In this document: in pieces, positions 5,087 through 48,115 of the stretch | How positions within the stretch are numbered: position 1 is the first letter of the stretch | Layout of the letters: every line of letters begins with the position of its first letter | From: Candidatus Nanopelagicaceae bacterium | GTDB lineage: Bacteria; Chloroflexota; Dormibacteria; Aeolococcales; Bog-877 | Direction of reading: 5' to 3' | Assembly (NCBI GenBank): GCA_035531535.1 | Contig: DATKSV010000099.1 | Location: forward strand, 340 to 64,339 | Length of the DNA stretch: 64,000 nucleotides | The notes under the pieces: generated by a model | What the model saw: the letters and a program-made list of their open reading frames with translations, nothing else | Database searches by the model: none | What the model was told of the DNA's origin: nothing | Position numbers and translations under genes: made by a program

Positions 5087-6388
5087 ATGGCCATCGAGCG
5101 CGAGCCGGTCGAGGTGACCGTCGAGATCGACGGCGACGAGCTTGTCGCGGGCGTGCTTCGAGTCCACGACCGTCGCGGGCAGAGCGCGACGTTCGCCTAT
5201 AGCGAGGGGTACCTTCGGGATCCGCGCGCCTATCCGCTCGACCCCGCGCTCCAGTTGGGGCTTGCCAGCTACCAGACACCGCCCGGAAAGGAGATCTTCA
5301 ATGCCTTCTCCGATGGCGCTCCCGACAGGTGGGGGCGGAGTCTGATGATGAGAGCGGCGCGCGGCCGGCAGCCTGGCACCGGCCCGCGGTCGCTCACCAC
5401 CGCCGACTTTCTCCTCGGAACCCGCGACGACCTGCGTCAGGGAGCGATCCGCCTCCGACGCCCCGGGTCCGGTCACTACTGGTCGCCATCAGGCGAGGGT
5501 GTCCCACACCTCCTTTCCCTCCCGGCGCTTCTAGGCGCCACGGACCGCTTCGTCGAGGGCGACCTCGACGACGAGGCGCAGGCGATCAAGGATCTCGTCG
5601 CCGCCGGCTCGTCGCTCGGAGGCGCCCGCCCGAAGGCAGCCATGCGCGCCTCCGACGGCGCGCTCGCCATGGCGAAGTTCCCCCGCAAGGGGAGCGACGA
5701 ATGGGACGTGGCCGGATGGGAGAAGCTGGAAGCCGATCTGGCCGATCGCGCCGGGATCTCGGTAGCTTCGAGTGAACTCATCAAGGTCGCCGGACGCAAC
5801 GTGCTGGTCCTCGCTCGGTTCGACCGCGCAGGCGATCGCCGGATCGGCTTCGCCAGTGCGCTCACGATGCTGGAGGCAAGCGACCATGAGACGCGCAGCT
5901 ATCTAGAGATTGCCGAGGTCCTCACCAAGGAGTCGAACTCCCCCGGCAGAGACCTGCAGGAGCTCTACCGGCGCATCGTCTTCTCGGTGCTGACGAGTAA
6001 CACCGACGACCACCTCCGCAACCACGGCTTCCTTCGCCAGGGCCGCGGGTGGGCCCTCGCTCCAGCCTATGACATGAACCCGAGCCCCGAGGCATCCGGC
6101 CACCAGGCGACGGCGGTCGGGATCGACGACACCCGGTCGAGCCTGGAGCTCTGCGTCGAAGTCAGTTCCGAATTTAGGCTTCAGCTGGCGGAAGCAAAGC
6201 TCATCGTGGCGTCCATTGCTGCCGCGACGTCGACCTGGCGGCAGGAGGCGACGCGCATGGGCCTGCCCGCTCAGGAGGTTGCTCGCATGGCAGCTGCCTT
6301 CGAGTCACCGGAGCGTGCCCTGGTGCCCAAGCTGACGGCGCCGCGCGTGGCGATGGATGGAGCCCCTCTCGGTGAGGTGGGCCCCTGA
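5087..6388 (+). CDS. hipA: HipA-family serine/threonine kinase toxin
   Basis: Has LGGARPKAAM, the catalytic-loop-like NTDDHLRNHGFL and APAYDMNPSP. The 433-aa length is typical. Confidence 0.9.
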   Translation: MAIEREPVEVTVEIDGDELVAGVLRVHDRRGQSATFAYSEGYLRDPRAYPLDPALQLGLASYQTPPGKEIFNAFSDGAPDRWGRSLMMRAARGRQPGTGPRSLTTADFLLGTRDDLRQGAIRLRRPGSGHYWSPSGEGVPHLLSLPALLGATDRFVEGDLDDEAQAIKDLVAAGSSLGGARPKAAMRASDGALAMAKFPRKGSDEWDVAGWEKLEADLADRAGISVASSELIKVAGRNVLVLARFDRAGDRRIGFASALTMLEASDHETRSYLEIAEVLTKESNSPGRDLQELYRRIVFSVLTSNTDDHLRNHGFLRQGRGWALAPAYDMNPSPEASGHQATAVGIDDTRSSLELCVEVSSEFRLQLAEAKLIVASIAAATSTWRQEATRMGLPAQEVARMAAAFESPERALVPKLTAPRVAMDGAPLGEVGP

Positions 6389-40234: not shown

Positions 40235-40310
40235 GCGGGAGTAGCTCAGTTGGCAGAGCGTCTGCTTCCCAAGCAGAAGGTCGCCGGTTCGAACCCGGTC
40301 TCCCGCTCCA
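40235..40310 (+). tRNA. tRNA-Gly (anticodon CCC)
   Basis: Hand-folded cloverleaf: acceptor gcgggag/ctcccgc, D stem gctc/gagc, anticodon stem tctgc/gcaga with loop ttCCCaa, T arm gccgg-ttcgaac-ccggt, encoded CCA. Confidence 0.9.
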
Positions 40311-40323
40311 AAGCGAACTTTCG
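40255..40323 (+). repeat. attL: 69-bp direct repeat covering the 3' two-thirds of tRNA-Gly plus 13 nt
   Basis: Matches 48047-48115 at 68 of 69 positions. The only difference is c at 40296 versus a at 48088. Confidence 0.85.
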
Positions 40324-40483
40324 AGTTCAGTAACAGCATCTGCGGGTGCGGTTAGGGCAGCATAAAGCCGCCTGAAATAGATCCAAAACCTAACACGCGC
40401 GGACGCTGGTAAACGGGTGTTTTGTCAAAATCGCCACCATCCCCCAATTCAGGGAGCAGAAGCCACCCGGGAGTCGGGACGCG

Positions 40484-41426
40484 ATGCCAGCCACACTCAA
40501 GACGGCTATCCCAGGGGCCAGCTCGGTACCAGATCTGGTCAACGACTACCTGAGCTCCTGCCCGGCCCGAGGACTCTCGCTGCGAACCATGGAGAATGCC
40601 AGTGGGTTCGCTCTCAACAGGATTTTCTTCCCTGGTGCCGCAGGGAGGGAGTCGCCACCACCGACGACCTCTCTCAGTCCACACTGGATCGATTCACCAC
40701 TGACCTCCTGAGACGCCCGAGCGAGCGAGGCAGCCCCTCTCCAAGGCGAGAGTCCACAGTTACGCTCGCCCGGCGTGGCAGCTGCTGGCCTGGGGAGAGG
40801 CTCGCGGGGAGGCTGTCGGGGGCCGGCCACAGCTGCGAAAGCAGCCGAGACGAGAGAGGGAGGTGCTCAGCTGGGCTGAGATCAACCACCTCGAGGACAG
40901 CGCTCGGACCGAACGGGACAAGGTCATCGTCCGGCTCTTCGCCGACCGCGGCCTGCATCTGGCGGAGCTGGCTGGGCTTAGCGTGGAGGACATCAGGCGA
41001 GGCGGCAACCGGACCTACCTGCGGGTTCGGGGCAAGGGCGACCGCGAGCGGCTGGTGCCGATGCTTCCCGATCTGGCGCGGCGGGTGGAGCGCCTGAGCC
41101 GAAACCGGCCGGCCGACGCCGCCGGAGGTCGAATCTTCTACTCGAGCCGGCGGCTGCACGGCGACACCTACGAGCCCCTGACGGAGTCCGGGGTGGCCCA
41201 GATGGTGGGATTGCTGGGCAAACAGGCGCAACTGGGCAAGCCGGTCCACCCGCACCTGCTCCGGCACTCGTGGATCACGGAGATGCTGCGGCGGGGAATG
41301 AACCCGATTCAGCTGGCGGCGATAGCTGGCGCTTCGGAGAAGGTGATCGCTGATCACTACGCGCATCTCAGCCAGGACGATGCCTACGACGCCATGGCCA
41401 AGGCGCTGGAGATGCGCCCCCGTTAA
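40484..41426 (+). pseudogene. Tyrosine integrase, interrupted by two frameshifts
   Basis: N-terminal piece LVNDYLSSCPARGLSLRTMENASGFALNRIF (starting at 40484). Middle piece FLPWCRREGVATTDDLSQSTLDRFTTDLL (frame of ORF 40417). C-terminal piece SKARVHSYARPAWQLLAWGE...VLSWAEINHLE...RGKGDRERLVP...HLLRHSWITEMLRRG...IAGASEKVIADHYAHL (frame of ORF 40863). Frames switch near 40625 and 40738. Confidence 0.8.
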
Positions 41427-41532: not shown

Positions 41533-42144
41533 TCAGGTGCTCGGAGTTGGCGCCACCGACTCCAAGGCGCTGGTGCTCATTACTCGACGCGTGTTGGCGT
41601 TGATGATGGCCGATGCGACCACCGAATTCCAGCCTGCCTGGGGCGGGGCGGCCAGCGTCACGATCCACAGGTTCTGTGGACTAGTTGAGGAGTAGGAGGA
41701 CTGGGTGTCGATGCGTACCGACTTGGCTCCCGCCACATAGAACCCGCCCGTGATCCTCAAGTGCTCGATACGCACTCTCCGGGTGGACTTTGTCCCGTTC
41801 ACCCCACCCGTCCAAGGCGCGGCGAGTGCGGCCCTGGTGACCCACCCCGGCACGAATTGGCTCGCGAGTCGGCCCTGGGTCGCGGACGCAACCTGGATCC
41901 GCCCCAGCCCGGGCGCGACGACTGAACTGTAGGTCAGCTGGGCAGGCTGCAGCCAGACCGCGAGTCCCAACGCGACTACGACCACAGCGGCAGTCAGTCC
42001 CGTGGGAACCAAGCCGAATCTGGCGCGGTTGCCCACACGTCTGTCGCCCAGACTCCAACTGGTAGTGGTTCGGCGCGCGGAACTCTCCATACGCTGGTCG
42101 AGGAACGACCGCAGTCGTCTCTCAAACTCGGGGTCGGTACTCAT
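41533..42144 (-). CDS. Single-pass membrane protein, putative anti-sigma factor
   Basis: Start MSTDPEFERRLRSFLDQ overlaps the sigma-factor stop (ATGA). TM segment GLTAAVVVVALGLAVWL, then an extracytoplasmic domain. Confidence 0.5.
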   Translation of the reverse strand: MSTDPEFERRLRSFLDQRMESSARRTTTSWSLGDRRVGNRARFGLVPTGLTAAVVVVALGLAVWLQPAQLTYSSVVAPGLGRIQVASATQGRLASQFVPGWVTRAALAAPWTGGVNGTKSTRRVRIEHLRITGGFYVAGAKSVRIDTQSSYSSTSPQNLWIVTLAAPPQAGWNSVVASAIINANTRRVMSTSALESVAPTPST

Positions 42145-42659
42145 GACGACAGACTCCTCCTGATCGTGGTCAGTGCGCGTGCCAGATGGCTCCGAGCGGT
42201 GCCGGGTCGGCATCCCAGCAACCCGGCACATTCGTCGAGGGTGTATCCGTGGAAGAAGTGCAATACCAAGACCGCTCTCTGCCGAGGCGTGCAACGCCCG
42301 AAGCCGACACCTATGTCCGCATCTCCGGGCAGGTCGGCCAGGGCAACCGGGTCGGCCTCGACCAAGCGGTGCCAGAGGTCAGTCCGGCGGAGGCGGGTTC
42401 GTCTCCAACTGAGGGCTCTGCGCACACAGATCTGGAGCAACCACTGCTCTCGTTTGGCCGGGTCGCGACATGAGCTCCACTTCCGCCAGGCCATCTCGAG
42501 ACTCTCTTGGGCCACATCCTCGGCGGCCGCGTGATCGTCCAAGATGACGGCGGCCGTGGCGACCAACTTCGACCAGCTGGTCGAGGCCAAGCCCTCAAAC
42601 GAGGTGTTCCGGTCCGCCTCCAAGCCCGGGACCGCTGGCAGCGACTCGTCCATGTTCAT
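42141..42659 (-). CDS. ECF-type RNA polymerase sigma factor
   Basis: Region 2 DDHAAAEDVAQESLEMAWRKW. Region 4 QRAVLVLHFFHGYTLDECAGLLGCRPGTARSHLARAL. Start at ATG 42659 (MNMDESL). Confidence 0.85.
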   Translation of the reverse strand: MNMDESLPAVPGLEADRNTSFEGLASTSWSKLVATAAVILDDHAAAEDVAQESLEMAWRKWSSCRDPAKREQWLLQICVRRALSWRRTRLRRTDLWHRLVEADPVALADLPGDADIGVGFGRCTPRQRAVLVLHFFHGYTLDECAGLLGCRPGTARSHLARALTTIRRSLSS

Positions 42660-42892
42660 ATGACGCTGGTAACTATCCGTTGGTTTACGCGGCGGCGCCG
42701 CAGCCCTTCTTGAGGATCCTCGGCTCGAGGCAACAAACCCAGCGCGGCCACCCACGTCGGCTGGCTGCGGGATACTGGTTGGTGGTTGCATTGACGGCAG
42801 CCGGTGGCCGATCGTCGGCTTTGGGGCTGGGCTAATCGGGTCGGCACTGGCCGGCGAACGCACCTCGGAGCCAGGCGAAACGGTGGGTCAGA

Positions 42893-43660
42893 TCAGAGAG
42901 CCCCAGTGGGTTTCGGCCCGGGCCAGGACAGGCGCGTCAGGTCCGCCGCATAGGAAGTCTCCAACAACTCCAGTGAGGTCTCCGAGCGGTAGCCGGCGTC
43001 CAGGCCAGCCAGCACTCCGAGGTGTCGGGGGACAGCCGCCCCGACTTCAGCGAGCCACCTCCGAGCGCCGTCCTTGTCCGCTCCGTCTCTGACCACAGCG
43101 AAGAGGACAAACTGTGGCGGCGCCGACTGGTCGTCAAACTGCATGAGGACGTCGTGCAGTTCGGCGGTGAGATGGCGCTGCGAGGGCCGTTGGGCCCGCT
43201 TGGCAATATCCCTCGCAAGATCGACCAGATGGACCGGCACGGCTGGCCGGTCATAGCGATAGCCGAGCCAGGTCTTCAGTGCGAAGGTGCGGTCACTGCT
43301 GAGAACGCCAGGCTGAAGCATCCCGTCGGTGAGGGTGACCAGGGCGGCAGGGGGTAGGTGGATCGGTGGCTCATCACCCAAGACGCACTCGGTCTCATTC
43401 AGCCGGAGGATTCGGGACCGGATACCCCATTCGGCGGACGGATCGGGGACGGGATGCCTTGCCCTCAGTTCGACCAGCGGTTCGGTGAGAGTGGTTTCCC
43501 AAAAGGCGAGATCGCAATCCTGAGTCACCAAGACCCAAGCCGGGTGCGACCCAACCCGGGGCGTGAGCTGGCCATCTTCGCCCGTAGCGAGGCCGCCGAC
43601 CGGCAGCTCGGCATAAACGAGACTCCCCTGGCGCCAGCCGTGTGCGTAGAGACTGGCCAC
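42893..43660 (-). CDS. Hypothetical 255-aa protein, third gene of the island operon; carries a Pol-beta-nucleotidyltransferase-like GS..DxD string
   Basis: ATG start 1 nt after the upstream stop. VGSHPAWVLVTQDCDL fits hG[GS]x9-13Dh[DE]h. No RES, PIN, HEPN or other toxin motif was recognised by eye. Confidence 0.6.
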   Translation of the reverse strand: MASLYAHGWRQGSLVYAELPVGGLATGEDGQLTPRVGSHPAWVLVTQDCDLAFWETTLTEPLVELRARHPVPDPSAEWGIRSRILRLNETECVLGDEPPIHLPPAALVTLTDGMLQPGVLSSDRTFALKTWLGYRYDRPAVPVHLVDLARDIAKRAQRPSQRHLTAELHDVLMQFDDQSAPPQFVLFAVVRDGADKDGARRWLAEVGAAVPRHLGVLAGLDAGYRSETSLELLETSYAADLTRLSWPGPKPTGAL

Positions 43661-43661
43661 G

Positions 43662-44237
43662 TCACTCTTCGTGGAGTGGCACCCACGCTTCGCCTGCGCG
43701 GCGTGGGAAGCGCCCCCGCATCATCCCGCCCGTCCGGGGCGGCGCGAGCACATCGAGCGCCGCGAGGTAGCTGCCTGGCACATCATCTGCCTCCAGCATC
43801 TCAAGCGCCGATGGTCGGTTGCCAACTGGGGGCTCGCTCAGCACGCGCGTCAGCTCGATGCGGTCCCCGCCGACGACAGTCCATAAACGGCTCACCAACA
43901 TGTGGAGAACCATGATGCGGTGGACAAGGCCAGGTACGCGAACGAGCTGTGAGCGCCCCCGAAGGATCGCATCCACGGTCGGATGGCTGGTGCCAATCGC
44001 CTGGGCGAGCGTTCGTGACGACCAGCCTGTCCACTCCTTGACCTGACGAAGCTGCTCTTGAGTCCGTGGCACTCTGGACGGCTCGCTTGCGGGGACGTGC
44101 CAGAGTGCTGTGAGATCGCGCAAGGGGGACGACAGCTTCTCTCCCCGAGTGAGGTTCCACTCATCGACTAGAGTCGTCCCCCAAGGCTCGGCAATGTCCA
44201 GCGAGCCGGGCGCGGTCGCTGGGTTCATGACCGTCAC
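43662..44237 (-). CDS. HTH protein with C-terminal Xre/MbcA/ParS (DUF2384)-like domain, antitoxin-type
   Basis: HTH WSSRTLAQAIGTSHPTVDAILRGRS. C-terminal ...RVLSEPPVGNRPSALEMLEADDVPGSYLAALDVL resembles the toxin-binding domain pattern (P..L.g.sPlelL....G...v...L). Has a 4-nt overlap with the upstream gene. Confidence 0.55.
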   Translation of the reverse strand: MTVMNPATAPGSLDIAEPWGTTLVDEWNLTRGEKLSSPLRDLTALWHVPASEPSRVPRTQEQLRQVKEWTGWSSRTLAQAIGTSHPTVDAILRGRSQLVRVPGLVHRIMVLHMLVSRLWTVVGGDRIELTRVLSEPPVGNRPSALEMLEADDVPGSYLAALDVLAPPRTGGMMRGRFPRRAGEAWVPLHEE

Positions 44238-45085
44238 GAGACTTCCTCGAAGCCGAAGTGATCTTCACCTTGGGGAGTGAGCGACCAACGGAAGAACGCG
44301 TCGATCTCGCGGTGGAGGGCCTCAAATTGCCGGCGCAGGGCACCAGCGTCGAAGGCCTGAGGCGCCTCGACTGAGAGGTCGAGGCCAAGGATGTAGCTCG
44401 CGGCGGTCGTCGTTATCGGAGGGATGCCGGGGATCCCGGATCCGCCCGGTACAAGCCCGTGCTGAACCGCACAGCGGATGTCGGGGGTAAGACCGGAGAA
44501 CGGCCCTTCCGCAGCAGCTCGAAGTTGGATCTGGCTCAAGGCGACCTCAGGGACAGTCTGGTCATCAAGCAAGTTGCTGGCTACCCAGCCAGTCAGCTCG
44601 GGGCGGAACCACTCCCGCCAGCTTGTCTCCCCGCCGGGCGGGGTCTCGGCCACCGACAGATATCGAACGCCGAGACGATCGCATCGGGGGACGCCTGCCT
44701 CCTCGCCAAGCACCGAGAGGATCTGCTCAAGGCGCTCGGCGAAGTCGTCGACGCCCTCGTAAGCTGAGCCGACGGTCAGGGTGGCGCTTCCGGTGCTGAT
44801 CACCGCCATCCGTCCACCGTCATCGGTCAGCTCCCAGGCCAGTCCGCCGACCACCCCCGGCGTCGGTCCTGTCGGTCCCGGCGTGATTTGCAGGGCGACC
44901 TCTTGGCGCTGGGCCATGTAGGGATAGCGATCCCGAAGCCGCTCCTGGATCGGAGCGATGCCTTCCGCTGACTGGATCCGGGCGATGAGTGGGAAACGGA
45001 CCTGAACGAGCGCTTGCGCCAACGGGGCGCGCGTGAGGCGGTAGCGCGTCGGAGCTTGCAGCCGGAACACCTTCAATCCTCCCAA
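44234..45085 (-). CDS. TIGR04255-like conserved hypothetical protein, first gene of the island operon
   Basis: N-terminus ...YRLTRAPLAQALVQVRFPLIARIQSAEGIAPIQERLRDRYP resembles the '..nPLvEvv.elRF...' opening I associate with the TIGR04255 family. 283 aa. Confidence 0.5.
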   Translation of the reverse strand: MGGLKVFRLQAPTRYRLTRAPLAQALVQVRFPLIARIQSAEGIAPIQERLRDRYPYMAQRQEVALQITPGPTGPTPGVVGGLAWELTDDGGRMAVISTGSATLTVGSAYEGVDDFAERLEQILSVLGEEAGVPRCDRLGVRYLSVAETPPGGETSWREWFRPELTGWVASNLLDDQTVPEVALSQIQLRAAAEGPFSGLTPDIRCAVQHGLVPGGSGIPGIPPITTTAASYILGLDLSVEAPQAFDAGALRRQFEALHREIDAFFRWSLTPQGEDHFGFEEVS

Positions 45086-45328
45086 TCGCAGCTGCTTTCC
45101 ATGTGCTTACCACTCTAGCGACCCGAGGTCTCAGGCGGTGGGCGGCGCAGAGGAACGCGACGGTCGGCGATATAGAGGACCTGGCCGGGGATGGACGACA
45201 GCGCTGCCACTCGCCCTCTGGCCGACATCCCGGGGCCTGATTGGACTAGGCGGAGACACGGGCAATGGGAAGGTCGGCGCTCTGTGTAGGGCGGGAACTC
45301 AGCTGCCATCGCCAGCTGGTCTGGGAAC

Positions 45329-45802
45329 TTGGCGGCGATGGACGAGGTGGCCGAACTGACGGTCCGCGACCTTGGCGACGACCGGGCCGCCCGTGCCGCC
45401 CAACAGGCGGCCACAGGGCGGCTCCGTGAGATCGCCAGGCTCGGGAGATCGGTGGACATCCACCTCGTCTGCTGCACCCAGAGACCGGATGCCGAGGCGG
45501 TGCCGGGGCAGCTGAAGGCCAACCTCGGCGGCACGGTCGCCTTCCGGGTCAGAGCCGCCGTGAGCAGCTTCATCCTGCTCGACTGCGACAGGGCCTCGCT
45601 GCTACCGCCGCACCCGGGCCGGTCAGTCTTCGCCCTTGAGACCGTGGAGGAGTTCCAGGCGGTCGGCTGCTCGATCGATGAGAGCCGGGAGCTGCTGCTG
45701 GCCAGGTGGGGTTCCGGGAGAGTCTCACCCACCACTGGCCCTGTATCACAGTGGTGGCAAAGTACGTGCCCGACTTCAGACGAGCTCTCGGATCCATCGT
45801 GA
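45329..45802 (+). pseudogene. FtsK/SpoIIIE-family DNA translocase, C-terminal fragment only
   Basis: Walker-B-like AAMDEVAELTV, then GRSVDIHLVCCTQRPDAEAVPGQLKANLGGTVAFRVRAAVSSFILLD. No Walker A region. The frame is closed by a TAG ~40 nt upstream. Confidence 0.6.
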
Positions 45803-46353
45803 TGAGAGCGCTCAGGATTCTGAGCGCTGGGGTGGATACGCTCCACTGCTCCGTCCCGGGGGAGCTTCAGGACGGGCTGTTGGCCTTCCTAGAGGCGCTC
45901 AAGCAGGAGTCTCAGCGTACCAACGAGCTTCAGGTGGTCACCTGGGCGGAGCAGTCCCTCTCGGTAGCCCTGCGGCCCCACTGCTGGCGAAGCTATCCGT
46001 TCTGGGCCAGCTCCCCCAACATAGAGGTGGTGATCGGGGCCGCCCCTCCTTTCCCGCCGGTATTCATCCAGGCTCACTCCGCCTATCTGCACTCCAGAGG
46101 AGCGGACCAGGCGGTGGCCGAGATATCCCAGTGGCTGGACGCCAACGTGATGCGCGATGAGCCGGTCTTCGGAATCTCCCGTCGTGACCTTTACTGCGAC
46201 CTCCAGGGCTGGTCGCCAGTCATCGAAGACTTCGACCGCTTCCACTGCCGGGGGGCCGCCGACTCCGATGAGGCGGTGGTTCCGTTCGACATTCACGTGG
46301 ACGGTCAGCGTGTTCACCTGGTGGCCCGTGCGCCCCTCGTTGTTGTTGTCTGA
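45802..46353 (+). pseudogene. Possible replication-initiator (Rep_trans-like) fragment
   Basis: MRALRILSAGVDTLHCSV... and ...FGISRRDLYCDLQGW resemble Rep_trans motifs (iDwl.fT; RiDla.D). The ATG overlaps the FtsK-fragment stop (TGATG). It ends prematurely at 184 codons. Weak assignment. Confidence 0.35.
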
Positions 46354-46519: not shown

Positions 46520-46795
46520 TCACCGGTCGTAGTGCTTCGACACAGTCAGCATCCGCTTACGTCCTGCCTCCAACCGCTCGAAACTGAGGCGAAGAGACCC
46601 GGTGGCAGAAGCCGACCATGACCCGTCTCGGTCGCCAGTCAGTTTGTGGATGCGCAGGGATGGATGGCGCTCGTTCTCGTCAAGCAAGCGAAGAGCCTTC
46701 AGGAGGGCGGCTCGGTCGGTGGCCGTAAAGTCTCTGGCGGCGAAGGGCTCCAAGAAGGTCGCCGTGAAGTCGAGGGAGCGATAACTGTCCGCCAC
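46520..46795 (-). CDS. RelE/ParE-superfamily toxin-like protein
   Basis: 91 aa, LRIHKLTGDRDGSWSASATGSLRLSFE. Lies directly downstream of an AbrB-type antitoxin gene. Confidence 0.6.
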   Translation of the reverse strand: MADSYRSLDFTATFLEPFAARDFTATDRAALLKALRLLDENERHPSLRIHKLTGDRDGSWSASATGSLRLSFERLEAGRKRMLTVSKHYDR

Positions 46796-46799
46796 CGGG

Positions 46800-47066
46800 T
46801 CAAGAGCCCAGGGTCTGCAGCTCGGCCTCGGTCAACTGGTGGACCCGTCCCTCCCTGGAGTCTGCGTGAGCTCGGGAGAGCAGCGCACGGTGCTCTGGGG
46901 TGTATGCCCAGGCATCCTCGCGGCGTAGCACGATCGCTGGGCGCAGGATGATCGCCTCACCATCCACTTCGACCTCAACTTCGGTCTCGCCCTCAAGGCC
47001 AAGGCGGCGGCGCACTTCGACCGGCAGGGTCAGCCGCCCCGACTCGCTCACAGATACCGTTTTCAT
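46800..47066 (-). CDS. AbrB/MazE/SpoVT-family antitoxin
   Basis: MKTVSVSESGRLTLPVEVRRRLGLEGETEVEVEVDGEAIILRP. Start taken at ATG 47066. Confidence 0.75.
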   Translation of the reverse strand: MKTVSVSESGRLTLPVEVRRRLGLEGETEVEVEVDGEAIILRPAIVLRREDAWAYTPEHRALLSRAHADSREGRVHQLTEAELQTLGS

Positions 47067-47206
47067 ACTGACAATGTACCAGATAGGCGAAACGGCAAAG
47101 CGGGGCACCTAGCGATCTCAGCCAGACGGCAACGGCACCAGAGACGCCTGCCGGCCATGTCGGGATGGTGCAGGGCCTCCGCGCACAACGATGCTAAGAT
47201 GCCAAG

Positions 47207-48046: not shown

Positions 48047-48115
48047 AGAGCGTCTGCTTCCCAAGCAGAAGGTCGCCGGTTCGAACCAGGTCTCCCGCTC
48101 CAAAGCGAACTTTCG
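48047..48115 (+). repeat. attR: 69-bp copy of the tRNA-Gly 3' portion (non-functional fragment)
   Basis: Lacks the tRNA 5' acceptor and D arm. Its single substitution (a at 48088) disrupts T-stem pairing. Confidence 0.85.

What the first reader, a model, noticed from the sequence alone, without database searches (positions are those of the whole stretch)
42893..45085. Uncharacterised, tightly coupled three-gene operon on the tRNA-Gly island: possible new TA/abortive-infection-type system
Three minus-strand genes are packed with a 4-nt overlap (44234-44237) and a 1-nt gap (43661), which implies co-translation.

- Gene 1 (283 aa) opens with ...APLAQALVQVRFP..., which I associate with the sporadically distributed, functionless TIGR04255 family.
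- Gene 2 (191 aa) has an HTH (WSSRTLAQAIGTSHPTVDAILRG). Its C-terminal segment (PSALEMLEADDVPGSYLAALDVL) looks like the toxin-binding DUF2384 domain of Xre/MbcA/ParS antitoxins. Those antitoxins normally sit upstream of RES-domain NAD+-targeting toxins.
- Gene 3 (255 aa) occupies the toxin position but shows nothing RES-like. It does contain VGSHPAWVLVTQDCDL, which fits the Pol-beta nucleotidyltransferase signature hG[GS]x9-13Dh[DE]h. That fold is used by MenT/AbiEii toxins and CD-NTases.

The trio sits on a mobile island next to two classical TA pairs. An antitoxin-type protein paired with a non-canonical partner plus an extra conserved unknown protein is the pattern expected of an undescribed three-component toxin/defence module.
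Basis: partly seen in the sequence, partly recalled or inferred. Interest (0 to 1): 0.72.

Follow-up and report, generated by a model that had tools for sequence, protein, structure and literature searches.

The report
Mobile TIGR04255 three-gene cassette, function unknown

Summary
The three minus-strand ORFs, their 4-nt overlap and their 1-nt gap are real. Gene 1 more likely starts at GTG 45070 (278 aa).

- **Gene 1** is a true TIGR04255 protein. Its confident model is a tandem beta-alpha-beta4-alpha fold with no close solved relative.
- **Gene 2** is an XRE-type HTH protein. Its C-terminal domain resembles DUF2384 only at motif level (no Pfam hit, hhalign 21%).
- **Gene 3** belongs to a family with no domain annotation. 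The proposed nucleotidyltransferase signature fails: G-S is not conserved, the first Asp is lost in other phyla, and no fold match exists. The conserved core is [ST]-Q-x-C-D...E-x-R plus WLGxRYDRPAVP.

The trio is co-inherited in about 50 of 66 genome loci. It recurs on a Vibrio plasmid and, probably, a cyanobacterial one. TIGR04255 cassettes with other partner genes occupy the P2-type defence hotspot of Burkholderia phages.

A new finding is a conserved operator: two TGGAA-type repeats 11 nt apart upstream of gene 1, co-varying with gene 2's recognition helix.

Best reading (about 0.45): an autoregulated three-part conflict module. No PADLOC model or paper describes it. Toxicity and defence are untested.

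The parts
45095..45112 (-). Putative operator: two direct repeats, TGGTAAG-CACA-TGGAAAG, 11 nt start-to-start. It lies 42 nt upstream of gene 1's start.
   Evidence: It is the only conserved block in otherwise unalignable upstream DNA of six relatives. It is the only occurrence of the pattern in the 64-kb window, against 0.01 expected. The strict phased pair is present in 41 of 56 distinct upstream regions against 9 of 10,376 background windows. Half-site variants co-vary with gene 2's recognition helix.
45112..45117 (-). TAGAGT, a -10-like hexamer abutting the first repeat (inferred promoter element).
   Evidence: Read from the sequence. A TAnnnT box sits at the equivalent place in most loci. 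The sigma-70 consensus scan found nothing, so this is inference only.
45077..45083 (-). Shine-Dalgarno GGGAGGA for gene 1.
   Evidence: It lies 7 nt upstream of GTG 45070.
44234..45070 (-). Gene 1: TIGR04255 family protein, 278 aa from GTG 45070 (the ORF as listed runs from TTG 45085). Acidic, soluble, with a tandem beta-alpha-beta4-alpha fold.
   Evidence: NCBIfam TIGR04255, E 3e-36. Homologues are named TIGR04255 by their sources. AF2 gives pLDDT 92.6 and pTM 0.89. Foldseek finds only remote AdoMetDC, TBP and helix-grip matches at TM about 0.25. Family mean pI is 4.8.
43662..44237 (-). Gene 2: 191-aa XRE-type HTH protein (HTH about residues 62-109) with a variable N-terminus and a conserved helical C-terminal domain plus tail (...AYLAALDVL.PR...P.R.G.AT..LHE). 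Proposed autorepressor and partner-binding adaptor.
   Evidence: Pfam HTH_31, E 1e-6. HTH_31 is found in 39 of 45 family members. DUF2384 was not detected and hhalign gives 21%. It is the fastest-evolving of the three genes. Its recognition helix co-varies with the operator.
42893..43660 (-). Gene 3: 255-aa protein of an unannotated family. It has a beta-rich N-domain carrying GWRQG, [ST]-Q-x-C-D and E-x-R, a basic helical linker with WLGxRYDRPAVP, and a ferredoxin-like C-domain. Proposed effector.
   Evidence: No hit in Pfam, NCBIfam, PADLOC or PHROGs. More than 422 homologues in one search and 744 cluster representatives in another. Invariant residues come from alignment A1. AF2 gives pLDDT 84.3. 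No significant structural neighbour. The Vibrio homologue scores 96% by hhalign.
40255..40323 (+). Left copy of the island's 69-nt direct repeat (3' part of tRNA-Gly plus 13 nt). Context, not part of the cassette.
48047..48115 (+). Right copy of the 69-nt direct repeat, which bounds the 7.8-kb island. Context.

Best explanation
The locus is a self-contained, horizontally mobile three-gene cassette transcribed from one promoter upstream of gene 1.

**Gene 2.** Its XRE-type HTH binds two 11-nt-phased TGGAA-type direct repeats that overlap the transcription start or 5' leader, and so autoregulates the operon. This step is inferred from conservation and co-variation. Its conserved C-terminal helical domain and tail probably hold one of the other two proteins in check.

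**Gene 3.** It is the most likely effector or 'toxin'. It has a two-domain fold with no solved relative. Its N-domain carries an invariant Q-x-C-D...E-x-R cluster, a candidate catalytic or metal site.

**Gene 1.** The TIGR04255 protein is an acidic tandem TBP-like/helix-grip fold with a conserved cluster of Arg, Tyr, Asp and His residues (their position on the beta-sheet was not mapped). It is the constant component of a wider set of cassettes and most likely acts as the ligand- or protein-sensing subunit.

**Overall.** It behaves like a tripartite toxin-antitoxin, abortive-infection or defence-type conflict module carried as cargo by integrative elements, plasmids and temperate phages.

**Shown versus inferred.** Anatomy, conservation, co-inheritance, mobility, the operator and the lack of known homology are shown. 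DNA binding by gene 2, the role assignment of genes 1 and 3, toxicity and any phage phenotype are inferred.
For: **The three genes form one unit**
- Same order and tight junctions in about 50 of 66 loci.
- Pairwise identities of the three genes correlate at r = 0.85-0.88.
- The same TIGR04255 - HTH - gene 3 homologue trio is on a Vibrio plasmid (hhalign 96%). A probable equivalent is on a Chroococcidiopsis plasmid (46%).

**Mobility and conflict context**
- The window copy sits on a tRNA-Gly island with integrase and two TA pairs.
- The commonest families among 150 flanking ORFs are integrase, RepSA, ResIII, Mu transposase, IstB and DNA methylases.
- L069 is flanked by BrnT, IS1595, Mrr and ArdC.
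- TIGR04255-led cassettes occupy the portal-adjacent variable slot of P2-like Burkholderia phages, where relatives carry NYN or TA cargo. This corresponds to the P2 old/tin defence hotspot (PMC9122126).
- A Rhizobium copy lies beside a multiubiquitin-ThiF cassette and an IS110.
- Two divergent copies occur in single genomes: L008 and L039 in one, L004 and L029 in another.

**Regulation**
- The operator is present in 41 of 56 upstream regions against a 0.09% background.
- It is absent from cassettes whose middle gene lacks an HTH.
- The residue after His in the recognition helix tracks half-site base 6: H-P-T with TGGAAAG, H-[TS]-T with TGGAACG, and [ST]-R-x-T with GTGTAAAG.

**Antitoxin-like behaviour of gene 2**
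- It is the most divergent gene in 98% of pairs.
- Its DUF2384-like motif aligns in register with solved antitoxins.

**Gene 3 as effector**
- All clear solo copies (L052, L053, L061) lack the N-terminal 48-90 residues.
- L016 has an IS inserted after about codon 17 while genes 1 and 2 stay intact.
- Where gene 3 is split from genes 1 and 2 (L013, L014, L043), it is still overlapped by 4 nt with another small HTH-like ORF.
- The third gene is swapped for another family in the Burkholderia-phage and Rhizobium cassettes.
Against: - No experiment or homology shows toxicity, neutralisation or phage defence.
- Neither gene 1 nor gene 3 resembles any known toxin, nuclease, NADase or defence effector by sequence or fold.
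- The CcdB, MazF and MafB-CT fold hits are not significant (E 0.06-0.12).
- About half of the flanking genes are ordinary cellular genes.
- The actinobacterial-type trio was not found on IMG/VR viral contigs.
- The phage-hotspot evidence comes from cassettes whose second and third genes are not detectably related to genes 2 and 3.
- Direct repeats are unusual operators for XRE dimers.
- The operator/helix co-variation follows clades, so it is not phylogenetically independent.
- The truncated or solo copies are few and come from MAGs that are prone to assembly errors.
- Genes 1 and 2 stay coupled when gene 3 is uncoupled. That fits gene 1 as the partner of gene 2 equally well.
Confidence: 0.45

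Rival explanations
1. The module is the same, but with reversed roles. The TIGR04255 protein (gene 1) is the toxin or effector and gene 2 is its downstream HTH antitoxin, in the toxin-first order of higBA or mqsRA. Gene 3 is then an accessory, sensor or second effector.
For: Genes 1 and 2 overlap in every cassette, including those in distant phyla. They stay coupled when gene 3 is moved to the other strand. TIGR04255 is the only component constant across all cassette types. It has conserved polar residues (R129, R132, R136, D229/D231, H253 in P0133 numbering). XRE-HTH antitoxins encoded after their toxin are established for HigA and MqsA (own knowledge).
Against: Disrupted copies preferentially lose gene 3's N-terminus, not gene 1. 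Swappable third genes look more like effectors. Gene 1's helix-grip/TBP-like fold is typical of binding proteins. No toxin-like homology was found.
Confidence: 0.17
2. It is not a conflict system. It is a regulatory or maintenance module of integrative elements, for example control of excision, transfer or lysogeny. Gene 2 would be the element's repressor and genes 1 and 3 would be co-factors.
For: The cassette lies directly next to tyrosine integrases on the Vibrio and Chroococcidiopsis plasmids and in the Burkholderia phage. Integrase and RepSA are the commonest neighbours. The operator-controlled HTH fits a repressor. The partner ORF in the divergent loci looks like an excisionase-type HTH (by eye).
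Against: Many copies have no integrase or transfer genes within reach. The window's island is decaying, with a split integrase and an FtsK fragment, yet the trio is intact. In the P2-like phages the slot is accessory and variable, not the lysogeny-control region. Cargo next to integrases is typical of defence and TA genes.
Confidence: 0.15
3. Gene 3 is a Pol-beta-fold nucleotidyltransferase toxin (MenT, AbiEii or CD-NTase-like), neutralised by a DUF2384-type Xre antitoxin (gene 2).
For: The string GS-x10-DCD exists in the window protein. The gene 2 C-terminal motif aligns in register with DUF2384. One NTase-domain protein appears at rank 15 in BFVD.
Against: G36/S37 are not conserved. D48 is Ser or Thr in other phyla. 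The motif sits after a long beta-hairpin, not in an NTase alpha/beta core. There is no NTase among the top 50 PDB fold matches. The BFVD hit has E 0.25 and TM 0.25/0.38. PF09722 hits no member.
Confidence: 0.03
4. It is an ordinary XRE-regulated operon for an unknown cellular (metabolic or stress) function that happens to be horizontally transferred.
For: Some loci have housekeeping-type neighbours. All three proteins are soluble and acidic or neutral, with no toxin signature.
Against: Distribution is sparse and patchy: 66 loci among 185,579 species genomes by this method, spread across Actinomycetota, Chloroflexota, Eremiobacterota/Vulcanimicrobiota, Melainabacteria, Vibrio and cyanobacteria. 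Decayed and IS-hit copies exist. Multiple divergent copies occur per genome. It is carried by phages and plasmids.
Confidence: 0.08

Closest known systems
Xre/MbcA/ParS-type antitoxins paired with RES or ART toxins (MbcTA, ParST, Xre-RES, NatRT)
   Same: The middle protein has an XRE-class HTH followed by a small helical C-terminal domain. That domain's L-x-[ST]-P-...-G-x-[ST]-[AP]-x-[DE]-L motif aligns in register with the DUF2384 core of five solved antitoxins. The putative effector is encoded immediately downstream and is translationally coupled. The module sits on mobile DNA.
   Different: PF09722 and PF20432 are not met at Pfam thresholds. The downstream protein is not a RES or ART domain and has no known fold. 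There is an extra conserved upstream TIGR04255 gene. The operator is a pair of direct repeats.
Tripartite toxin-antitoxin systems (for example the TAC toxin-antitoxin-chaperone system, omega-epsilon-zeta, paaR-paaA-parE). Comparison from own knowledge.
   Same: Three small co-transcribed genes on mobile elements, one of them a DNA-binding regulator. Junctions are tight. The regulator or antitoxin-like component evolves fastest.
   Different: No component is homologous to any of those systems. The regulator is the middle gene and is fused to a putative partner-binding domain. The two other proteins are large (255-278 aa) and of unknown activity.
Accessory defence cargo of the P2-like phage hotspot between the replication gene and the portal gene (old, tin and others; PMC9122126)
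   Same: TIGR04255-led three-gene cassettes occupy this variable, portal-adjacent slot in seven Burkholderia Peduoviridae, next to a TA pair. Near-identical phages carry other cargo there.
   Different: In those phages the second and third genes are unrelated to the window's genes 2 and 3. No defence activity has been shown for any TIGR04255 cassette. PADLOC has no model for it.
TBP-like, AdoMetDC-like and Bet v1/START helix-grip folds (for gene 1)
   Same: Two tandem beta-alpha-beta4-alpha units. The best Foldseek hits are AdoMetDC proenzyme (E 2e-4), TBP (E 7.5e-3) and PYL/START proteins.
   Different: TM-scores are only about 0.25. The protein is acidic (pI 4.8), unlike DNA-binding TBP. No invariant Ser is present that could serve for pyruvoyl self-processing. 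No sequence relation was found.

Membership tests
TIGR04255 family (gene 1) | Full-length match to the NCBIfam TIGR04255 HMM above the curated cut-off of 30 bits | tested here: met
   125.5 bits, E 3e-36, profile positions 1-251 of 252. Homologues are named TIGR04255 by their sources.
XRE-family HTH regulator (gene 2) | HTH_31 or HTH_3 domain above the Pfam gathering score | tested here: met
   HTH_31 scores 29.3 bits against 27, residues 62-109. HTH_31 is found in 39 of 45 family members.
Xre/MbcA/ParS antitoxin class (gene 2) | C-terminal toxin-binding domain PF09722 (DUF2384) | tested here: not met
   No hit in 45 full-length or 35 C-terminal-domain sequences at E<=10. The domain profile finds no MbcA, ParS or Xre chain in PDB.
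Xre/MbcA/ParS antitoxin class (gene 2) | Remote profile-profile similarity of the C-terminal domain to solved DUF2384 domains | tested here: inconclusive
   hhalign of A4 against A5 (8GUG, 6GW6, 6D0H, 8QNL, 6FKG segments) gives probability 21% over 31 columns, in register with the W-L..P...G..P.dL core.
Xre/MbcA/ParS antitoxin class (gene 2) | N-terminal Xre-like-HTH (PF20432) above the gathering score of 25.8 | tested here: not met
   6 of 45 members hit, all below threshold (best 19.8 bits, E 9.6e-4), among many generic HTH families.
Xre/MbcA/ParS antitoxin class (gene 2) | Downstream partner is a RES-domain or ART-fold toxin | tested here: not met
   Gene 3 has no Pfam or NCBIfam hit at E<=1. 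No RES or ART structure appears among its Foldseek neighbours.
Pol-beta nucleotidyltransferase toxins (MenT, AbiEii, CD-NTase) (gene 3) | Conserved hG[GS] motif | tested here: not met
   G36 and S37 are variable in the 40-sequence alignment and absent from the invariant and near-invariant lists.
Pol-beta nucleotidyltransferase toxins (gene 3) | Conserved [DE]h[DE]h catalytic pair | tested here: not met
   D50 is invariant, but D48 is Ser in the Vibrio homologue and Thr in the Chroococcidiopsis homologue (SQSCDI, TQTCDI). The conserved core is Q-x-C-D.
Pol-beta nucleotidyltransferase toxins (gene 3) | NTase alpha/beta fold | tested here: not met
   The model (pLDDT 84) places the motif after a long beta-hairpin. 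No NTase appears in the top 50 PDB matches. The single BFVD NTase-domain hit has E 0.25 and TM 0.25/0.38.
Type II toxin-antitoxin system | Adjacent, co-transcribed, translationally coupled genes with a DNA-binding autoregulator | tested here: met
   4-nt overlap and 1-nt gap. HTH protein present. The conserved operator co-varies with the HTH. Binding itself is inferred.
Type II toxin-antitoxin system | One product is toxic and is neutralised by direct binding of the antitoxin | not testable with these tools
   Only indirect hints exist: N-terminally truncated or IS-disrupted gene 3 copies.
Catalogued anti-phage defence systems (PADLOC-DB v2) | HMM match of any component | tested here: not met
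   No hit for genes 1 and 3. Gene 2 has only a weak generic HTH hit (E 0.044). The same holds for the Vibrio, cyanobacterial and phage cassettes and the Rhizobium third gene.
CcdB/MazF-fold toxins (gene 3 N-domain) | Significant structural similarity to CcdB, MazF or Kid | tested here: inconclusive
   3TCJ_B E 0.061, TM(target) 0.55. 1UB4_A E 0.12, TM(target) 0.52. These are not significant, and the aligned region is unknown.
TBP-like / AdoMetDC-like fold (gene 1) | Significant structural similarity | tested here: inconclusive
   1MSV_A E 2e-4, probability 0.96, but TM 0.25 and rmsd 15 A. TBP chains score E 7.5e-3 to 1.5e-2. The secondary-structure order matches beta-alpha-beta4-alpha twice.

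The most novel reading that the evidence does not exclude
TIGR04255-led cassettes would be a widespread, previously unrecognised family of mobile-element-borne defence or abortive-infection systems. They would have a constant TIGR04255 sensor subunit and swappable regulator-effector pairs. The gene 3 family would define a new effector fold that uses an invariant Q-x-C-D...E-x-R site, kept in check by an Xre-like HTH protein that reads clade-specific 11-nt-phased direct repeats.
Probability: 0.3. Interest if true: 0.75.

Novelty: new variant of a known kind. Interest (0 to 1): 0.55.

Why it matters
If the cassette is a conflict system, it would give a first function to TIGR04255. That family has been catalogued for years as 'sporadically distributed, function unknown', and the held literature has no paper on it. 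It would also add a three-part architecture with two uncharacterised folds to the toxin-antitoxin and defence repertoire.

The cassette is compact (2.2 kb) and carries its own promoter and operator. Versions exist in culturable hosts (Streptomyces, Kribbella, Actinoplanes, Vibrio, and Burkholderia thailandensis or B. pseudomallei phages), so it can be tested directly.

The operator/recognition-helix co-variation also offers a natural series for studying how paralogous cassettes in one genome stay insulated from each other.

If it proves to be only an element-maintenance module, the interest is modest.

Tried and rejected
- **Family scans of gene 3.** Pfam, NCBIfam, PADLOC and PHROGs gave nothing.
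- **PDB sequence searches.** Profile or single-sequence searches for all three proteins and for gene 2's C-terminal domain gave only chance hits.
- **Foldseek on the gene 3 model.** Neither PDB nor BFVD gave a significant match. The NTase, RES, Sir2, HAD, caspase, papain and PD-(D/E)xK readings of the TQDCDL motif were considered. All were dropped because the predicted secondary structure and the conservation pattern do not fit. There is no invariant His, no Rossmann-type beta-alpha-beta, and the first Asp is not conserved.
- **P0366.** This 503-aa 'fusion' of genes 2 and 3 has an out-of-frame, low-complexity tail. It was treated as a read-through or assembly artefact.
- **L052 and L053.** At first these looked like alternative architectures, but they are truncated remnants.
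- **IMG/VR scans.** Searches for genes 1 and 3 returned no confirmed relatives.
- **E. coli genomes.** The Vibrio cassette DNA found no match.
- **Promoter and terminator scan.** The consensus scan found nothing in 42500-45500, and only one weak inverted repeat lies upstream of gene 1. The operator turned out to be direct repeats instead.
- **Literature.** A full-text search for TIGR04255 found no paper.
- **The 142-aa HTH-like ORF in L014.** A PDB sequence search was negative.


Full report
**1. Observation**

The three minus-strand ORFs are present exactly as described: 44234-45085, 43662-44237 and 42893-43660. I read both junctions from the sequence. Gene 1 ends TCGTGA and gene 2 starts at the overlapping GTG, with GAGGAAG 5 nt upstream. 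Gene 2's TGA is followed by a single base and then gene 3's GTG.

Gene 1's true start is more likely GTG 45070, giving 278 aa. A GGGAGGA ribosome-binding site lies 7 nt upstream of it and overlaps the TTG at 45085, and the database copy P0133 is 278 aa.

The island claim holds. tRNA-Gly(ccc) lies at 40235-40310. A 69-nt, 99%-identical direct repeat at 40255-40323 and 48047-48115 bounds a 7.8-kb insert. The insert carries:
- the C-terminal part of a tyrosine integrase
- an ECF sigma factor
- an FtsK/SpoIIIE fragment
- a MazE/AbrB-type gene with a 91-aa partner
- an RHH-PIN pair

G+C drops slightly across the island, to 0.64-0.67 from about 0.70 on the tRNA-proximal side.

**2. The three proteins**

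*Gene 1* is a bona fide TIGR04255 protein (125.5 bits against a cut-off of 30). Its relatives are named so by their sources.
- With a 41-sequence alignment, AlphaFold gives a very confident model: pLDDT 92.6, pTM 0.89.
- The secondary-structure order is beta-alpha-beta4-alpha twice.
- Foldseek finds only remote neighbours: AdoMetDC proenzyme at E 2e-4, TBP at 7.5e-3, and PYL/START helix-grip proteins. All have TM about 0.25.
- Profile searches of PDB sequences find nothing.
- The family is acidic (mean pI 4.8). This argues against TBP-style DNA binding and for ligand or protein binding.
- Conserved polar residues include R129, R132, R136, D229/D231 and H253 in P0133 numbering.

*Gene 2* has an XRE-type HTH (HTH_31, E 1e-6, residues 62-109).
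- I extracted the middle gene from all loci and scanned 45 members. HTH_31 is found in 39, and PF20432 (Xre-like-HTH) in 6, all sub-threshold. PF09722 (DUF2384) is found in none.
- The 35 isolated C-terminal domains also give no PF09722 hit. Their profile finds no antitoxin in PDB.
- I recovered the true DUF2384 segments of 8GUG, 6GW6, 6D0H, 8QNL and 6FKG from PDB using a bait consensus. Comparing profiles, the gene 2 motif aligns in register but with only 21% probability.
- The DUF2384 idea is therefore a reasonable lead that is not established.

*Gene 3* has no hit in Pfam, NCBIfam, PADLOC or PHROGs.
- It has more than 422 homologues of about 250 aa by word-based search. A profile search finds 744 representatives among 1.84 billion clusters.
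- Invariant residues include W9, Q11, G12, Q47, C49, D50, L51, E64, G79, S82, R124 and the block W131-L-G-x-R-Y-D-R-P-A-V-P142.
- The model (pLDDT 84.3) shows three parts: a beta-rich N-domain, a basic helical linker (pI 10.9) and a beta-beta-alpha-beta C-domain.
- No structural neighbour is significant in PDB or BFVD.
- The weak partial hits are to CDF/MamM C-terminal domains and to CcdB, MazF and MafB-CT.

**3. The nucleotidyltransferase claim**

- G36/S37 vary within the family.
- The first Asp is Ser in the Vibrio homologue and Thr in the Chroococcidiopsis one.
- The motif follows a long beta-hairpin rather than an NTase core.
- None of the many NTase structures in PDB appears among the top matches.
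- The one BFVD NTase-domain hit is at noise level (E 0.25).
- The cross-phylum core is [ST]-Q-x-C-D followed by E-x-R.

**4. Conserved linkage**

A genome scan returned 66 loci. Most are from Actinomycetota (Acidimicrobiia, Streptomyces, Kribbella, Actinoplanes, Solirubrobacterales, Gaiella). Others are from Chloroflexota, Eremiobacterota/Vulcanimicrobiota, Limnocylindrales and Melainabacteria.
- tblastn finds genes 1, 2 and 3 in the same order in about 50 loci.
- A middle ORF fills the gap even where it is too diverged to detect by tblastn. The g1/g2 junctions are overlaps or near-abutting gaps, and the g2/g3 junctions are gaps of 0-29 nt.
- In 38 complete cassettes, mean pairwise identity is 0.44 for gene 1, 0.33 for gene 2 and 0.43 for gene 3.
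- Identities correlate at r = 0.85-0.88, and gene 2 is the most divergent in 98% of pairs.
- The cassette is therefore inherited as one unit, with a fast-evolving middle gene.

**5. Wider family**

tblastn against annotated collections and the annotated regions show TIGR04255-led three-gene cassettes elsewhere. All four leader genes are full-length TIGR04255 members at E 1e-43 to 1e-47.
- **Vibrio plasmid:** between an integrase and an IS3. Its third gene is a gene 3 homologue (hhalign 96%).
- **Chroococcidiopsis conjugative plasmid:** next to an integrase. Its third gene is a probable homologue (46%).
- **Seven Burkholderia pseudomallei phages.**
- **Rhizobium plasmids:** next to a multiubiquitin-ThiF-DUF6527 cassette and an IS110.

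The Burkholderia-phage and Rhizobium third genes are unrelated to gene 3. They resemble each other through an H-x-G...H...G-L-T-C-[SA]-T motif. Their middle genes have no recognisable HTH. So TIGR04255 is the constant component, and the downstream pair comes in at least two types.

**6. Context**

The two nearest ORFs on each side were taken in about 50 loci, 150 ORFs in all. The most recurrent Pfam families are Phage_integrase (5), RepSA of pSAM2-type elements (3), ResIII (3), Mu transposase C-terminal domain (3), IstB (2), N6_N4 methylase (2) and Type I R-M pieces. The rest are singletons.

Gene-called contexts range from mobile or defence-rich (L069: BrnT, IS1595, Mrr, ArdC, helicases) to ordinary cellular genes.

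In the P2-like Burkholderia phages the cassette sits between the replication gene plus integrase and the portal gene.
- phiE202 carries an NYN-domain gene and a BrnT-type TA pair at that position.
- phiE12-2 carries other genes and a different TA pair.
- This matches the P2 hotspot between gpA and gpQ that holds old, tin and other defence systems (PMC9122126).

Two caveats apply. The actinobacterial-type trio itself was not found on IMG/VR contigs. No PADLOC model matches any variant.

**7. A conserved operator (new)**

Aligning the upstream DNA of six relatives shows one conserved block in otherwise unalignable sequence: GCTAnAGTGGTAAGCACATGGAAAG. It consists of two TGGAA-type heptamers 11 nt apart, just after a TAnnnT -10-like box and 24-47 nt before the start codon.
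- The strict pattern [TC]GG[ATC]A[AC]-N5-[TC]GG[ATC]A[AC] occurs in 41 of 56 distinct upstream regions.
- It occurs in only 9 of 10,376 background windows (binomial p about 5e-113).
- It occurs once in the 64-kb window, at 45112-45095.
- Most misses are one-base variants.

Variants follow clades and track the gene 2 recognition helix:

| Recognition helix | Half-site |
|---|---|
| S/T-H-P-T | TGGAAAG or TGGTAAG |
| S-H-[TS]-T | TGGAACG |
| S-H-[AT]-[QE] | [TC]GGAACA or TGGAAC (up to 3-4 repeats) |
| [ST]-R-[QP]-T (Chloroflexi) | GTGTAAAGT |

The Vibrio cassette has TGTGTAAT-N4-TGTGTAAT and the cyanobacterial one has TTCACA-N6-TTCACA. The two cassettes without an HTH middle gene have no such repeats.

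This is good in-silico evidence that gene 2 autoregulates the operon. The co-variation is not phylogenetically independent, and an RNA-level role for the repeats is not excluded.

**8. Hints on which gene is the effector**

- The three clear solo copies of gene 3 (L052, L053, L061) all lack the N-terminal 48-90 residues that carry GWRQG and Q-x-C-D.
- In L016 an IS1595-type element is inserted after about codon 17 of gene 3, with genes 1 and 2 intact.
- In L007 an IS lies 70 nt upstream of an intact gene 3, at a contig edge.
- In L013, L014 and L043, genes 1 and 2 lie on the opposite strand. Gene 3 is instead overlapped by 4 nt with another small ORF of 142 aa that looks like an excisionase-type HTH by eye.
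- So gene 3 is always coupled to a small HTH-type protein, as toxins are to antitoxins.
- These observations are few, come mostly from MAGs, and do not exclude gene 1 as the partner of gene 2.

**9. Verdict**

The finding is real and the cassette is conserved, mobile and uncharacterised. One is unproven (DUF2384) and one is refuted (the NTase).

The most likely explanation, at about 0.45, is an autoregulated tripartite conflict module with this role assignment:
- gene 2 as repressor and adaptor
- gene 3 as effector
- the TIGR04255 protein as a sensing subunit

The rivals are:
- a reversed role assignment (0.17)
- an element-maintenance module (0.15)
- an ordinary regulated operon (0.08)

I rate it a new variant of a known kind. 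It is a good, directly testable candidate, but it is one of many such candidates until toxicity or defence is shown.

Noticed in passing
window 45095-45117 (minus strand); equivalent positions in L001-L072: There is a conserved pair of 11-nt-phased TGGAA-type direct repeats after a TAnnnT box upstream of gene 1. The half-site variants are clade-specific and co-vary with the gene 2 recognition helix. L057 and L059 have 3-4 repeats.
   Followed up: yes
L014 about 5577-6004 (also L013, L043): In three loci, genes 1 and 2 are on the opposite strand to gene 3. The gap between them encodes a 142-aa ORF (MARLVGVREVSKLLGVSRQRADQLVRTKGFPDP...) that looks like an AlpA/excisionase-type HTH.
   Followed up: partly
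L075 5300-6010 and L076 5473-6129: The third genes of the Burkholderia-phage and Rhizobium TIGR04255 cassettes are unrelated to gene 3. They resemble each other (HVGIAF...HLAWHRQL...GLTCSTFIAEVF against HVGVLY...HLWWHHRL...GLTCATYVTSVF). The His-before-Cys pattern is reminiscent of permuted papain/NlpC-type hydrolases, which is a memory-based lead only. No Pfam or NCBIfam hit.
   Followed up: partly
window 40417-41426 and 45329-46353: The island looks like a decaying actinomycete integrative element. Only the C-terminal catalytic part of the integrase is in one ORF (40863-41426), with possible N-terminal pieces in other frames. Only a short FtsK/SpoIIIE fragment remains (45329-45802). The trio is nevertheless intact.
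   Followed up: partly
window 41533-42863 (minus strand): An ECF sigma factor (42141-42863; regions 2 and 4) lies directly downstream of gene 3 on the same strand. It is followed by an overlapping 253-aa ORF with no family hit, possibly an anti-sigma factor. Sigma-70 families were not among the recurrent neighbours in other loci, so this adjacency seems specific to the window.
   Followed up: partly
window 46520-46795 (minus strand): A 91-aa ORF lies just downstream of the MazE/AbrB-type gene (46800-47108) and presumably encodes its toxin partner. It has no Pfam or NCBIfam hit. Its HKLTGDRDGSWSA...LRLSF string looks RelE/ParE-like by eye.
   Followed up: no
L008 and L039 (both OZ220743.1); L004 and L029 (both JAVKSL01): Single genomes carry two divergent copies of the cassette. 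In OZ220743.1 their operator half-sites differ (TGGAAAG-type against TGGCGAC/TGGAGAC), which suggests insulation between paralogous cassettes.
   Followed up: partly
L016 4360-6001; L007 95-1501; L052 7159-8913: IS elements lie in or beside the cassette. An IS1595-type transposase gene is inserted after about codon 17 of gene 3 (L016). A DDE transposase lies 70 nt upstream of gene 3 at a contig edge (L007). A TnpB-like gene lies next to a truncated gene 3 that is fused to a fragment of an FAD-oxidoreductase (L052).
   Followed up: partly
L076 1147-3444: On Rhizobium plasmid pCB3060_2 the TIGR04255 cassette lies immediately after a multiubiquitin - ThiF adenylyltransferase - DUF6527 cassette. 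From my own knowledge, this kind of ubiquitin-like conjugation module has been linked to phage defence.
   Followed up: no
L062 2835-4988 and 7778-9781: A Melainabacteria contig carries two cassettes in inverted orientation. One looks intact and the other has genes 1 and 3 broken into several frames.
   Followed up: no
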